Source: Carcharhinus amblyrhynchos | Lineage: Eukaryota | Assembly: GCA_965287045.1 (NCBI GenBank) | Contig: OZ336882.1 | Location: 57,350,001 to 57,414,000 of the forward strand | Direction: 5' to 3' | Length of the DNA: 64,000 nucleotides | Shown here: piece after piece, positions 15,001-18,000 of the stretch | How the letters are laid out: each line of letters opens with the position of its first letter | Position numbering within the stretch: the first letter of the stretch is position 1 | Made by a program: the position numbers

Positions 15001-18000
15001 GCTGCCTCAGTGCCAAAGATGCTTCCTGGCTTGGGTCATTGTCTGTGCGGAGTCTGCATGTTTTTCTCATGTCTGTGTGGATTTCCTCTAGGTGCTCTAG
15101 TTCCCTTCCACAGTGTGAAATACATGCTGGTTAGGTGCGTTGGCCATGCTAAATTCTTCCTTACTGTACCCAACAGGCGCTGAAGTGTGGTGACTAGGGG
15201 ATTTTCACAATAACTTTATTGCAGTGTTCATGTAAGCCTACTTGTGACACTAATAAATAAACTAAAAGCATTGGATTATATAGGATATGTGGAACAGAAC
15301 TAGACCATTCGGTCCAACCAGTTCATGTCAACAATTATGCCTCTCCTGTTTTTCCTCATCTAAATCTATCATTCATAGAATCATGGAATTCTACAGTGCA
15401 GAAAGAGGTCATTTGGCCCATCAAGTCTGCACTGATCACAATCCCTCCCAGCCCATAGCCATGTAACCCCATGTATTTAGCCTGCTGCTCTCCCTGACAC
15501 AAAGTTGCAATTTAGCACAGCCAGTCAACCTAACCCGCACATCTTTGGACTATGGGAGGAAACTGGAGCACCCGGAGGAAACCCATGCAGACACAAGGAG
15601 AATGTGCAAACTCTACACAGACAGTGACTCAAGCTGGGAATCAAACTTGGGTCCCTGGCACTGTGAGGCAGCAGTGCTACCCACTGTGCTACTGAGCTGC
15701 CCACAATTGTAACCGTTCTCCTGCCCATTGTAACCCTTTTCCCTCATAGGTCTGACTATCCTTCCCTTAAATGCATCTATACTATTTACTTCAACCACTC
15801 CCTGTAGTGATGAGTTCCATATTCTCAACACTGTTGGTAAAACGTTTCTTCTGAATTCCCTTTTGAATTTCTTTGTGACTATCATATATTGATGACCTCT
15901 ATTTTTGCTCTTCCTCATAAATTGAAACATTCTCTCTGTATCCACTTTATCAAAGTCTTTAATTGTTTTAAACATCGGTGTTAAGATTCTGTCTTCTTTC
16001 TGGAGAAAAGAGACTTAACCAAATACATGTCCACTCATGTATTTCTGGTATCATCCTTGTAAATCCTTGGCTGGAACTGCAGTTAGTACTCAAAGTGTGA
16101 TCTAACAAAGATTATATACTGGTTTAACATAACTTCCCTACTTTTTACTTCTATTGTAGAAGTAAATCCAAATGTTTGATTTGTTTTATGGCCTTGCTAA
16201 TGGGTGGCCCAACGTTTAGTTGTAGTTATTTAGTAGTAGGGGGATTTGCACTCAGATTCCTTTGTTTCTTTACCCCACTTAGACTTGCAATATGACACCT
16301 TGCATTTATACTATACATTTAGGAATGTAAAATTTCCAAGAGCTCCTTAGGAACATTATTAAACAAGACTTGTCACCGAGCAACATAAGAAAGTATTAGG
16401 GCAGATGGCCAAACACTTGATCAAAGAGAAACTAAGTAAAATACTGTGGATGCTGGAATCTGAAACAAGGTAAAAAGTCTGACAACACCAGGTTTTAGTC
16501 CAACCTATTTATTTGATAATATTCTCACAAGCTTTCGAGGGGTTACCCTCTTCGTCAGGTGAATGGAGAGTTCTGGCCTCAGACAGAGCATATAAAGCAC
16601 AGACAGTTTAGAGATTACTGATTAAAATGCGAATCCTTACACCTAACCTGCTGTTCAAGACCTGAAGTGGCTGACAATGTGAGTGGTAGGAGCACTGATC
16701 ACAGTTTAAAGAGATGTGTATTGTCTCCAGACAGTACAGTAAGTGAGGTTTTGCAAACCCAGGCAAGTCACGGGGGTTACAGATAGTGCGACATGAACCC
16801 AAGATCCCTGTTGAGACCGTCCTTATGTGTCCCGAAGCATGGTACATTGGGGAGACCATGCAGACGCTACGACAACGGATGAATGAACATCGCTCGACAG
16901 TCACCAGGCAAGACTGTTCCCTTCCTGTTGGCGAACACTTCAGTGGTCACGGGCATTCAGCCTCTGACCTTCGGGTAAGCATTCTCCAAGGCGGCCTTCA
17001 CAACACACGACAGCGCAGAGTCGATAAGCAGAGACTGATAGCCAAGTTCCGCACACATAAGGACGGTCTCAACAGGGATCTTGGGTTCATGTCGCACTAT
17101 CTGTAACCCCCGTGACTTGCCTGGGTTTGCAAAACCTCACTTACTGTACTGTCTGGAGACAATACACATCTCTTTAAACTGTGATCAGTGCTCCTACCAC
17201 TCACATTGTCAGCCACTTCAGGTCTTGAACAGCAGGTTAGGTGTAAGGATTCGCATTTTAATCAGTAATCTCTAAACTGTCTGTGCTTTATATGCTCTGT
17301 CTGAGGCCAGAACTCTCCATTCACCTGACGAAGAGGGTAACCCCTCGAAAGCTTGTGAGAATATTATCAAATAAATAGGTTGGACTAAAACCTGGTGTTG
17401 TCAGACTTTTTACTGTGTTTACGCCAGTCCAACACCGGCATACCCACATCTGAAACAAGAACAGAGGATGCCAGTAAGCTCAACAGGTTTGGCAGCATCC
17501 ATAAGGAAAGAAAGCAGAATTAACATTTCGAATGGTTTGACTTTTCATCAGAACTTGAACAAATCAGTAGACTTTAAGGAGTATCTTAAAACAGGGAATA
17601 GAGCTGGCGAGGTTTGGAGATGGAACTCCAGAGTTTAGTACTTCTTTTAATCTAGTCTACTATATTGTGTATTTGAAATGTGGTCCTCTCTGCAGTGCAG
17701 AGACCAAATGCAGATTGGGTGATCACTTTGTGGAACATCTCCATTCAGACTGCAAGCATGACCCCAAGCTTACGATGACCTGTCATTTAAATTCTCCATT
17801 TTGCTCTTGTGCTGATATGTCTGTCCTCGGCCTACTGCACTGTTCCAGTGAAGTGCAACACAAGCTTAAGGAACTTAGGGAACGATGTAGCATATTTCAA
17901 TCTTAATTGAGTTCAGCAATTTCAGATCAAACACTCTTTCCCTCTTTTTTTCCCTTTTTTTGTACGTTTCAGTTTCACTTATTTTTGTTTTCAGGTAATA

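What the first reader, a model, noticed from the sequence alone, without database searches (positions are those of the whole stretch)
16458..17459. Young Penelope-like insertion: 361-bp perfect fold-back around a GIY-YIG remnant
Seen: arms 16470-16830 and 17053-17413 are reverse complements with no mismatch I could find, and the ORF track gives identical C-termini on both strands. The 222-bp spacer encodes YIGET..R..EH.., continuing to GLNRD in the right arm. A ~37-nt 3' extension occurs only on the right arm, and a 12-bp TSD (ATCTGAAACAAG) flanks the insertion. Known: PLEs encode RT plus GIY-YIG and often insert with an inverted pLTR. Inference: perfect arms, an intact frame and an intact TSD point to a very recently or currently active PLE family in this shark. 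Any read-through transcript would form a long dsRNA hairpin ~4.6 kb upstream of the MATR3 promoter.
Basis: partly seen in the sequence, partly recalled or inferred. Interest (0 to 1): 0.7.

Follow-up and report, generated by a model that had tools for sequence, protein, structure and literature searches.

The report
Penelope-like retrotransposon fold-back insertion in shark
This is a real but ordinary dead-on-arrival fragment of a Penelope-like retrotransposon in a shark genome, and its hairpin shape, one-sided tail and 12-bp target duplication are the known signature of how these elements insert.

Summary
Arms 16470-16830 and 17053-17413 are a perfect 361-nt inverted repeat around a 222-nt unique core. 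A 34-nt tail sits on the right only, and an exact 12-bp target-site duplication (TSD) flanks the whole.

The core and right arm encode the last 92 residues of an RT-plus-GIY-YIG retrotransposon protein. The closest relatives are Mustelus asterias proteins at 90% identity. A confident model of a 76%-identical relative matches GIY-YIG nucleases. Each arm carries a minimal hammerhead-ribozyme motif, although Rfam finds none.

An inverted 5'-truncated copy plus a 30-40-bp tail at one end is the published architecture of Penelope-like elements (PLEs). Two further insertions in the window (7276-7529 and 21641-21823) share the architecture, the start sites and a 12-bp TSD.

"Very recently active" is not established. 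At the one measured shark mutation rate, zero differences allow about 6 million generations. No full-length M. asterias ORF was seen, and the host genome could not be searched.

One modest new lead is that 5 of 6 nick sites carry CAG at +3 to +5.

Verdict: a new member of a known kind, of low to moderate interest.

The parts
16458..16469 (.). Left copy of the 12-bp target-site duplication, ATCTGAAACAAG
   Evidence: It is exact and cannot be extended on either side.
16470..16830 (-). Inverted partial copy (left arm, 361 nt). It is the antisense of the last 54 coding bases, the stop codon and the 3' region up to the proximal reverse-transcription start. It has no tail.
   Evidence: 0 mismatches in 361 positions against 17053-17413. 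(blastn).
16524..16563 (-). Minimal hammerhead-ribozyme (min-HHR) motif in the left arm
   Evidence: descriptor hit. There were 3 hits in the window and 0 in 100 dinucleotide shuffles. The descriptor was written after I had seen the sequence.
16831..17052 (+). Unique core (222 nt). It is the 5'-truncated body that encodes the second half of the GIY-YIG endonuclease (PEAWYIGET...KFR).
   Evidence: It aligns to the extreme C-terminus of RT-EN proteins (P0014 residues 790-880 of 881; P0007 residues 552-643 of 643).
16828..17106 (+). Coding remnant: 92 codons plus the stop at 17104-17106. The first codon (TGT) lies in the arm and matches the conserved Cys, which suggests about 3 nt of junction microhomology.
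   Evidence: The stop falls at or within 1 residue of the C-terminus in 17 of the 42 aligned relatives. Consensus AEQ(K/R)LI is replaced here by DKQRLI.
17053..17413 (+). Right arm: the 3' part of the direct copy (end of the ORF, the stop codon and the pseudo-LTR-like 3' region)
17320..17359 (+). min-HHR motif: helix I of 5 bp, a CUGACGA box, one unpaired A, helix II of 5 bp with G10.1-C11.1, a GAAA box and a palindromic GC. The predicted cut is between 17354 and 17355.
   Evidence: The minimum-free-energy fold shows the same helices I and II (z = -0.63, not significant). The features match those listed in PMC4209133. Rfam found no hammerhead.
17414..17447 (+). Tail: a 34-nt extension present on the right arm only, spanning the gap between the proximal and distal reverse-transcription start sites
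   Evidence: The same sequence forms the tail of copy 2 (7288-7319, minus strand) and of copy 3.
17448..17459 (.). Right copy of the 12-bp target-site duplication
7276..7529 (.). Second insertion of the same family. TSD TAGCTAACAGGA at 7276-7287 and 7518-7529; tail at 7288-7319 (minus strand); perfect 91-nt arms at 7320-7410 and 7428-7518; 17-nt unique core at 7411-7427 (sense on the plus strand); complete min-HHR at 7423-7462 (plus strand).
   Evidence: It is about 92-93% identical to copy 1.
21641..21823 (+). Third, older insertion of a related family. TSD TTCCCTCAGGAA at 21641-21652 and 21812-21823; short imperfect inverted arm at 21653-21673 against 21739-21759; HHR core mutated to CTAACGA; a longer tail.

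Best explanation
The feature is one insertion event of an endonuclease-bearing Penelope-like retrotransposon (PLE) in what is almost certainly the Mustelus asterias genome. The element was dead on arrival. It holds only the last 617 nt of the unit: 92 codons of the GIY-YIG endonuclease, the stop codon, and a 3' pseudo-LTR-like region with a minimal hammerhead motif and a tail. To this is joined a second, inverted copy of the last 361 nt that lacks the tail.

The mechanism I think most likely runs in four steps:
1. The PLE protein nicked both DNA strands 12 bp apart.
2. Each 3'-OH primed reverse transcription on PLE RNA at one of two fixed internal start sites. The bottom strand used the distal site, which gives the tail. 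The top strand used the proximal site 34 nt upstream, which gives no tail.
3. The two cDNAs were joined at a short microhomology (about TGT) and completed by second-strand synthesis.
4. The result is a fold-back flanked by a 12-bp duplication.

What is shown here: the anatomy, the homology, the GIY-YIG fold of a close relative, the hammerhead motif, and the recurrence of the same end points in three insertions. What is inferred from the published in-vitro work on an Anolis PLE: nicking and priming on both strands, and the joining step. The insertion has low divergence, but its absolute age and the present activity of the family are unknown.
For: - Anatomy.
- Homology: the 92-aa peptide hits 42 proteins of 72 candidates at E<=1e-3. 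The best are three M. asterias proteins at 88-90% identity. It aligns to the very C-terminus of proteins that carry RVT_1 upstream. RVT_1 was found in 4 of the 7 relatives scanned.
- Family size: 19,712 representative clusters at E<=1e-3, many 800-1000 aa long with the match at their C-terminal end.
- GIY-YIG: Pfam gives a weak match (E=0.013, below the cut-off). A 79-sequence profile hits T4 endonuclease II over the GIY...YIG...R block at E=0.0048. An AlphaFold model of relative P0206 (76% identical to the window peptide) has pLDDT 92.1. Its best Foldseek matches are I-TevI (probability 1.00, target TM 0.80, rmsd 2.0 A), T4 EndoII, UvrC N-terminal domain and R.Eco29kI.
- Hammerhead: 3 descriptor hits, all inside these elements, against 0 in 100 shuffles. 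All four extra features listed in PMC4209133 are present.
- Published architecture: an inverted 5'-truncated copy plus a 30-40-bp tail at one end (PMC8557442). Both strands are cleaved and extended, there are two internal RT start sites, and the tail is the sequence between them (PMC11167929).
- Recurrence: three insertions in the window each have a TSD of exactly 12 bp (3 of 3). Their tail-less arms start within about 6 nt of one another, and copies 1 and 2 end within 1 nt of each other.
Against: - Rfam finds no hammerhead family, either at E<=10 in 16000-18000 or at gathering score in the whole window. My descriptor was written after seeing the motif, and the fold is not more stable than shuffles (z = -0.63).
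- The Pfam GIY-YIG score is below the curated cut-off for the window peptide and for all 3 of the 12 A1 relatives that matched at all. Foldseek E-values are only about 0.05.
- The window copy has no RT, so its PLE identity rests on relatives. No phylogeny places those RTs in the PLE clade.
- The first structure model, from a 12-sequence alignment, was poor (pLDDT 41.3).
- Two-strand priming was not observed here.
- The published start sites are said not to be homologous to the cleaved DNA, whereas copies 1 and 2 show 2-3 nt of possible microhomology at the distal junction.
- No reads were available to exclude a mis-assembly.
Confidence: 0.87

Rival explanations
1. The insertion is real but not young. 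The arms are identical because closely spaced inverted repeats are homogenised by gene conversion, or simply because sharks mutate very slowly. On this reading the family may be long extinct.
For: - The measured shark mutation rate is 7e-10 per bp per generation (95% CI 1.4-14.1e-10; PMC10587355). Zero differences in 373 paired sites then allow up to about 5.7 million generations (2.9-29 million across the CI; my arithmetic).
- Copies 1 and 2 each have perfect arms but differ from each other by about 7-8%.
- The closest M. asterias proteins are only 88-95% identical.
- No full-length M. asterias ORF is among the 42 hits or the 120 listed of 310. The longest is P0028, at 510 aa.
Against: - If the 8% between copies 1 and 2 had arisen after insertion, the arms of copy 1 should differ at about 29 sites. 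They differ at 0.
- The third copy shows that arms do decay: 2 mismatches and 1 indel in about 21 nt. Homogenisation is therefore not universal.
- Both TSDs of copies 1 and 2 are intact.
- Annotated protein sets under-report transposon ORFs.
Confidence: 0.3
2. The feature is an assembly artefact: a palindromic chimeric read or a collapsed or misjoined repeat created the fold-back.
For: PMC8557442 notes that the complex PLE structures often cause problems in whole-genome assemblies. Perfect palindromes are a known artefact type (recalled). No reads were available here.
Against: - An exact 12-bp TSD brackets the structure.
- The structure is asymmetric: a 34-nt tail on one side and a 222-nt unique core.
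- Two other loci have the same layout with different arm lengths and their own 12-bp TSDs.
- The layout is the published natural one.
Confidence: 0.03
3. The feature is a DNA transposon or fold-back (MITE-like) element with terminal inverted repeats, or two independent head-to-head insertions.
For: It has long inverted terminal repeats flanked by a direct duplication.
Against: - The ends are not symmetric (the tail is on one side only).
- The core and arm are the 3' end of an RT-EN retrotransposon ORF in one continuous frame.
- A single 12-bp TSD encloses both arms, so there was one event.
- No transposase-like ORF was found by Pfam among the 55 of the 67 ORFs of 90 aa or more that I scanned.
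Confidence: 0.02
4. The inverted copy arose by snap-back (hairpin) priming of the first cDNA on itself, or by L1-style twin priming on a single RNA, rather than by two target-primed reactions from fixed start sites.
For: Both mechanisms are known to make inversions in retroelement insertions (recalled, not checked in a paper here).
Against: - Snap-back would duplicate the 5'-truncated end and put the palindrome centre there. Here the duplicated part is the 3' terminus and the unique part is central.
- Twin priming inverts an upstream segment without duplicating the 3' end.
- The tail-less arm starts at the same place in 3 of 3 insertions.
Confidence: 0.05

Closest known systems
[quoted passage not shown] 2 of PMC8557442
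   Same: It is 5'-truncated, with an inverted 5'-truncated copy adjacent that forms inverted repeats. [quoted passage not shown]
   Different: Only a 617-nt fragment is present, with no RT and no upstream pseudo-LTR. Relatives carry PCxxxLCKTC, which fits the CX2-5CxxC linker of Neptune/Nematis and not Penelope/Poseidon. The clade was not tested by phylogeny. The TSD is exactly 12 bp in 3 of 3 insertions.
PAc, the Poseidon element of Anolis carolinensis studied in vitro (PMC11167929)
   Same: Both strands are cleaved and extended, and reverse transcription starts at two adjacent internal sites whose spacing is the tail. In PAc the hammerhead cut lies 85-92 nt upstream of the initiation site; here the cut lies 59 and 93 nt upstream of the two ends.
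   Different: PAc prefers AT-rich 5'-ATT-3' cleavage sites and reportedly needs no homology. Here 5 of 6 nick sites show NNCAG after the nick, and 2-3 nt of microhomology is possible at two junctions. No ATG lies at helix II of this hammerhead, unlike in PAc.
Minimal hammerhead ribozymes of metazoan PLEs (PMC4209133)
   Same: [quoted passage not shown] The paper also reports pairs of motifs 100-700 bp apart on opposite strands; the two here are about 760 bp apart.
   Different: Self-cleavage was not tested. The motif is not recognised by Rfam hammerhead models.
L1 twin priming (recalled from general knowledge; no paper read here)
   Same: A second priming event on the opposite strand creates an inverted segment within one TSD.
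   Different: Twin priming inverts a different, more 5' segment and does not duplicate the 3' end. It involves a poly(A) tail, and it has no fixed internal start sites, no tail signature and no ribozyme.

Membership tests
EN+ Penelope-like element (PLE) | Single ORF with a reverse transcriptase upstream of the endonuclease | tested here: inconclusive
   The window copy has no RT: tblastn with 6 RT-EN relatives matched only 16780-17103. Relatives that share the C-terminal 92 aa carry Pfam RVT_1 (4 of the 7 scanned; precomputed PF00078 in most rows). Whether those RTs fall in the PLE/telomerase-like clade was not tested.
EN+ Penelope-like element (PLE) | C-terminal GIY-YIG endonuclease domain | tested here: met
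   The YIGET...R..EH...N motifs are present. The profile hits T4 EndoII at E=0.0048. The model of a 76%-identical relative (pLDDT 92.1) matches I-TevI, EndoII, UvrC and R.Eco29kI best. Pfam scores are below the cut-off. The first half of the domain (the VVY strand and upstream cysteines) is missing from the window copy through truncation.
EN+ Penelope-like element (PLE) | Conserved R, H, E and N residues beyond the GIY-YIG core (PMC8557442) | tested here: not met
   R, H, H, R, I, G and N are present, but the nearly invariant Glu (E119 of P0206 in alignment A2) is Lys in the window (DKQRLI against AEQ(K/R)LI). This bears on this copy only, which is truncated and could not function anyway.
EN+ Penelope-like element (PLE) | 5' truncation with an adjacent inverted (or direct) partial copy that forms pseudo-LTR-like repeats | tested here: met
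   Perfect 361-nt inverted arms surround a 222-nt core. Two further examples lie in the window.
EN+ Penelope-like element (PLE) | 30-40-bp tail at only one end of the insertion | tested here: met
   The tail is 34 nt at 17414-17447 on the right only. The homologous tail in copy 2 is 32-35 nt. Copy 3 has a longer one of about 50 nt.
EN+ Penelope-like element (PLE) | Hammerhead ribozyme motif in the pseudo-LTR | tested here: met
   The min-HHR descriptor gives 3 hits in the window and 0 in 100 shuffles. All four non-descriptor features of PMC4209133 are present. Helix II stays paired in 3 of 3 copies despite different sequences. Caveats: the descriptor is post hoc, and copy 3 has a mutated core.
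Rfam hammerhead families | Score against the curated covariance models | tested here: not met
   There was no hammerhead match at E<=10 in 16000-18000 and none at gathering score in the whole window. This is expected for minimal motifs that lack helix III, but it is a failed test.
Hammerhead ribozyme (function) | Self-cleavage at the predicted site | not testable with these tools
   This needs in-vitro transcription of monomer and dimer constructs.
Neptune/Nematis-type PLE clades | CX2-5CxxC zinc-finger-like linker between RT and EN (absent in Penelope/Poseidon) | tested here: inconclusive
   The consensus of 12 relatives has PCxxxLCKTC, and these cysteines are nearly invariant in 79 sequences. 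The window copy lacks this region. No phylogeny and no reference sequences of named clades were available.
L1-type twin-priming inversion | The inverted segment is a different, upstream part of the RNA, with no duplication of the 3' end, plus a poly(A) tail | tested here: not met
   The same 361 nt occur in both orientations, and there is no poly(A).
TIR DNA transposon / fold-back element | Symmetric terminal inverted repeats that reach both ends, with a transposase or no retroelement coding | tested here: not met
   The right end has a 34-nt extension that is absent on the left. The interior is the 3' end of an RT-EN ORF.

The most novel reading that the evidence does not exclude
This shark PLE family (probably Neptune-like) may recognise a symmetric target, CTGNN-N12-NNCAG. 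A dimeric endonuclease would nick both strands with a fixed 12-nt stagger, and both 3' ends would prime cDNA from two fixed internal start sites in either combination. That would make these insertions natural, in-vivo footprints of the two-strand target-primed mechanism so far seen only in vitro for an Anolis element. In addition, the family may still be active in Mustelus asterias.
Probability: 0.25. Interest if true: 0.45.

Novelty: new member of a known kind. Interest (0 to 1): 0.27.

Why it matters
The finding matters mainly as a clean, annotated example. PLE insertions are often misread or mis-assembled, and automated pipelines label them only as LINE/Penelope.

Three insertions in one 64-kb window share the same two end points and a 12-bp duplication. 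This gives genomic support in a cartilaginous fish for the two-start-site, two-strand model derived in vitro from a lizard element.

The possible CAG-flanked symmetric target would be a new specificity for a vertebrate PLE, but it rests on six nick sites.

A 361-bp perfect inverted repeat 4.5 kb upstream of a matrin-3-like gene could yield dsRNA or small RNAs if transcribed. Nothing here shows that it is transcribed.

Tried and rejected
1. Rfam found no hammerhead or other meaningful family, either at E<=10 over 16000-18000 or at gathering score over the whole window. The seven weak hits are chance-level.
2. Thermodynamic support for the hammerhead and for a stem-loop in the tail is absent. 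The z-scores are -0.63, -0.34 and +0.26.
3. The first structure prediction, from 12 relatives, was poor (pLDDT 41.3), so I did not use it for a fold search. A deeper 79-sequence alignment gave a confident model.
4. Pfam on 55 of the 67 ORFs of 90 aa or more gave one hit only, ALKBH8_N at 42591-43115 (-), and no RT or transposase. I left out 12 overlapping or already examined ORFs.
5. tblastn with six RT-EN relatives found no other copy of this family's ORF in the window.
6. The Atlas search on the 308-aa exon gave only leads below 0.9.
7. I looked for an ORF start next to the hammerhead, as in PAc. There is no ATG there. The N-termini of ten relatives do not match the ATG that follows the shared end in copy 3.
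8. blastn of the flanks did not show the older inverted repeat. A local alignment did.
9. I rejected snap-back priming and twin priming on anatomical grounds.
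Full report
**The observation**

I read 16300-17600 and compared the arms base by base.
- Positions 16470-16830 and the reverse complement of 17053-17413 agree at 361 of 361 positions. Mismatches start immediately outside and inside that run.
- The unique core is 16831-17052 (222 nt).
- The right arm is followed by 34 nt (17414-17447) that have no counterpart on the left.
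- ATCTGAAACAAG occurs at 16458-16469 and 17448-17459. Neighbouring bases differ, so the duplication is exactly 12 bp.
It becomes 37 only if the ATC shared between the TSD and the template is counted, and copy 3 does continue with ATC.
- An RNA spanning the locus folds into one uninterrupted 361-bp stem with a minimum free energy of -794.7 kcal/mol.

**What it encodes**

The frame 16828-17103 gives 92 residues, CPEAWYIGET...GLNRDLGFMSHYL, followed by a stop codon.
- A search among longer proteins found 42 hits out of 72 candidates. The best three are 'uncharacterized protein' entries of Mustelus asterias at 88-90% identity. Other sharks (Scyliorhinus, Heptranchias, Chiloscyllium) follow at 75-82%.
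- The peptide aligns to the extreme C-terminus of long proteins: P0014 residues 790-880 of 881, P0007 residues 552-643 of 643, and P0019 residues 363-452 of 453.
- Pfam finds RVT_1 upstream in 4 of the 7 relatives I scanned.
- A profile of 12 relatives finds 19,712 representative clusters at E<=1e-3. Many are 800-1000 aa long with the match at their C-terminal end.

The window therefore holds the last tenth of an RT-endonuclease retrotransposon ORF, ending at the family's natural stop.

**The GIY-YIG test**
- Pfam GIY-YIG matches the window peptide only weakly (E=0.013, 16.3 bits against a cut-off of 22.6). It matched 3 of the 12 A1 relatives, all below the cut-off.
- A 12-sequence profile hit T4 endonuclease II at E=0.28. 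A 79-sequence profile hit it at E=0.0048, aligned over the GIY...YIG...R block.
- The first AlphaFold model was poor (pLDDT 41.3).
- With the 79-sequence alignment, the 144-aa relative P0206 gave pLDDT 92.1 and pTM 0.86. P0206 is 76% identical to the window peptide over 91 residues.
- The best Foldseek matches of that model are the I-TevI catalytic domain (probability 1.00, target-normalised TM 0.80, rmsd 2.0 A over 94 columns), then T4 EndoII, UvrC N-terminal GIY-YIG and R.Eco29kI. The E-values are modest (about 0.05), but there is no competing fold.
- The window copy keeps the YIG strand, R, H, H, R and N. It starts after the first (VVY) strand.
- It has Lys where the nearly invariant Glu sits: DKQRLI against the consensus AEQ(K/R)LI.

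**The ribozyme motif**

Rfam finds no hammerhead. By eye, and then with a descriptor I wrote afterwards, each arm carries a minimal type-I hammerhead at 17320-17359 (+) and 16524-16563 (-).
- It has a 5-bp helix I, a CUGACGA box and one unpaired A.
- It has a 5-bp helix II closed by G10.1-C11.1, a GAAA box and a palindromic GC at 15.2/16.2. The predicted cut is after 17354.
- The descriptor hits 3 places in the window, all inside these elements, and none in 100 dinucleotide shuffles.
- I read parts 1 and 2 of 4 of PMC4209133. [quoted passage not shown] It also mentions pairs of motifs 100-700 bp apart on opposite strands.
- Helix II differs in sequence and length among the three copies but stays paired.
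- The fold is not more stable than shuffles, and cleavage is untested.

**Comparison with the literature**
- Passages of PMC8557442 say that PLE insertions are highly 5'-truncated. [quoted passage not shown]
- The main text of PMC11167929, which I read in full, reports results for a purified Anolis PLE protein. It cleaves and extends both DNA strands. Reverse transcription starts at two adjacent internal sites. The tail is the sequence between them.
- In that element the hammerhead cut is 85-92 nt upstream of the initiation site. Here it is 59 nt upstream of the proximal end and 93 nt upstream of the distal end.
- The feature therefore matches the published signature point for point.

**Two more insertions in the window**

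blastn of the element against the window and inspection show two more insertions.
- Copy 2 spans 7276-7529. It has a 12-bp TSD (TAGCTAACAGGA), perfect 91-nt arms and a 17-nt core. Its tail is on the shorter arm. It is about 92-93% identical to copy 1.
- Copy 3 spans 21641-21823. It has a 12-bp TSD (TTCCCTCAGGAA) and a short inverted arm with 2 mismatches and 1 indel in about 21 nt. Its hammerhead core is mutated and its tail is longer.
- In 3 of 3 copies the tail-less arm starts within a window of about 6 nt (...TTAC to ...TTACTG).
- Copies 1 and 2 end within 1 nt of each other (...CCCAC/A).
- The tail is on the longer copy in 2 of 3 and on the shorter in 1 of 3. This fits the report that the start sites do not differ between strands.

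**Mechanism**

The duplicated part is the 3' terminus and the unique part is central. This excludes snap-back priming, which would put the palindrome centre at the truncated end. It also excludes L1-style twin priming, which does not duplicate the 3' end.

The simplest account is two nicks 12 bp apart, with each 3' end extended on PLE RNA from one of the two start sites. The two cDNAs were then joined where the arm's last TGT coincides with the conserved Cys codon of the body. The nicking, priming and joining steps are inferred, not observed.

**Age and activity**

Perfect arms and a perfect TSD mean low divergence. The 95% upper bound is 3/361, or 0.83%, between the arms. The epaulette-shark rate is 7e-10 per bp per generation (95% CI 1.4-14.1e-10; passages of PMC10587355). 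With that rate, zero differences in 373 paired sites allow up to about 5.7 million generations, or 2.9-29 million across the CI (my arithmetic).

Copies 1 and 2 differ by about 8% yet each has perfect arms. Their difference therefore predates insertion, or the arms are homogenised. Had it arisen afterwards, copy 1's arms should differ at about 29 sites.

No M. asterias protein longer than 510 aa appears among the relatives. I checked the 42 hits and the 120 listed of the 310 hits. This is weak evidence because annotation avoids repeats. The host genome could not be searched with these tools. Current activity is therefore possible but not shown.

**Context**
- The stop-to-stop ORF 32242-33165 (+), searched on its own as one exon, is 100% identical over 97% of its length to 'matrin-3-like isoform X1 [Mustelus asterias]'.
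- A GC-rich block (0.60 and 0.50) lies at 22000-22999, about 4.5 kb downstream of the element. This fits a promoter island, but the start site is unverified.
- Nothing in the window looked human.

**A possible new detail**

I lined up the six nick sites of the three insertions. Five of the six have CAG at positions +3 to +5 after the nick, so the target would read CTGNN-N12-NNCAG. In 20,000 random triplets of sites from the window, any trinucleotide at any offset reached 5 of 6 in 0.005% of trials. This is post hoc and rests on three insertions. It differs from the ATT preference reported for the Anolis element.

**Novelty**

The kind is known. Relatives carry PCxxxLCKTC, which fits the CX2-5CxxC linker that PMC8557442 assigns to Neptune/Nematis and not to Penelope/Poseidon. 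No phylogeny was done.

My searches were 'Penelope-like, hammerhead, pLTR' (7 papers) and 'Penelope, shark, transposable elements, genome' (17 papers, 15 listed). Neither showed a title or abstract describing this family or its fold-back insertions in sharks. A 2026 preprint (abstract and passages) includes one chondrichthyan in a survey of PLE-derived retrozymes. I did not read any supplements.

**Verdict**

This is a correctly spotted, textbook PLE insertion. It is a new member of a known kind, of low to moderate interest.

Noticed in passing
window 7276-7529: Second fold-back insertion of the same family. It has an exact 12-bp TSD (TAGCTAACAGGA), perfect 91-nt arms (7320-7410 and 7428-7518), a 17-nt core and a tail at 7288-7319 on the shorter arm. 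It sits inside what looks like a LINE reverse-transcriptase reading frame; that reading is by eye and was not tested.
   Followed up: yes
window 21641-21823: Third, older fold-back insertion of a related family. It has an exact 12-bp TSD (TTCCCTCAGGAA), a decayed short inverted arm, a hammerhead core mutated to CTAACGA, and a tail that runs about 16 nt further than in copies 1 and 2. The extension begins with ATG.
   Followed up: partly
nick sites at 16469/17448, 7287/7518 and 21652/21812: Five of six nick sites have CAG at +3 to +5 after the nick, so the target would be CTGNN-N12-NNCAG. The TSD is exactly 12 bp in 3 of 3 insertions. Random-site control: P = 5e-5 for any 3-mer at any offset.
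   Followed up: partly
window 17571-17906 (+), with 17503-17562 and about 18191-18250: An older, different GIY-YIG remnant (...CGPLCSAETKCRLGDHFVEHL...) lies just downstream of the insertion. Atlas leads at 0.94-0.95 include clusters that carry GIY-YIG. It is flanked by a diverged inverted repeat (local score 38; 0 of 500 shuffles reach it). Copy 1 may therefore lie in or near the arm of an older fold-back PLE of another family.
   Followed up: partly
window 17029-17034 (codons GAT AAG): The nearly invariant catalytic Glu of the endonuclease is Lys in this copy, and the preceding Ala is Asp. One relative (P0022) also has Lys there.
   Followed up: partly
window 17445-17450 and 7286-7291: There is possible 2-3-nt microhomology between the primer end (the TSD) and the template at the distal junction of copies 1 and 2, because copy 3 shows that the template continues ...CCACATC....
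   Followed up: no
window 32242-33165 (+) and 22000-22999: A large exon is 100% identical to matrin-3-like isoform X1 of Mustelus asterias, which identifies the host. A second, 53%-identical matrin-3-like protein of the same species was also listed. A GC-rich block, probably the promoter island, lies at 22000-22999.
   Followed up: partly
window 42591-43115 (-): This is the only Pfam hit among the 55 ORFs of 90 aa or more that I scanned: ALKBH8_N at E=5.9e-11. I recall that this domain name often turns up in LINE ORFs, but I did not check that.
   Followed up: no
window 61403-61434 (-) and 21321-21374 (-): Short matches (77-86%) to the sequences that flank copy 1 show that the insertion site is itself part of an interspersed repeat.
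   Followed up: no
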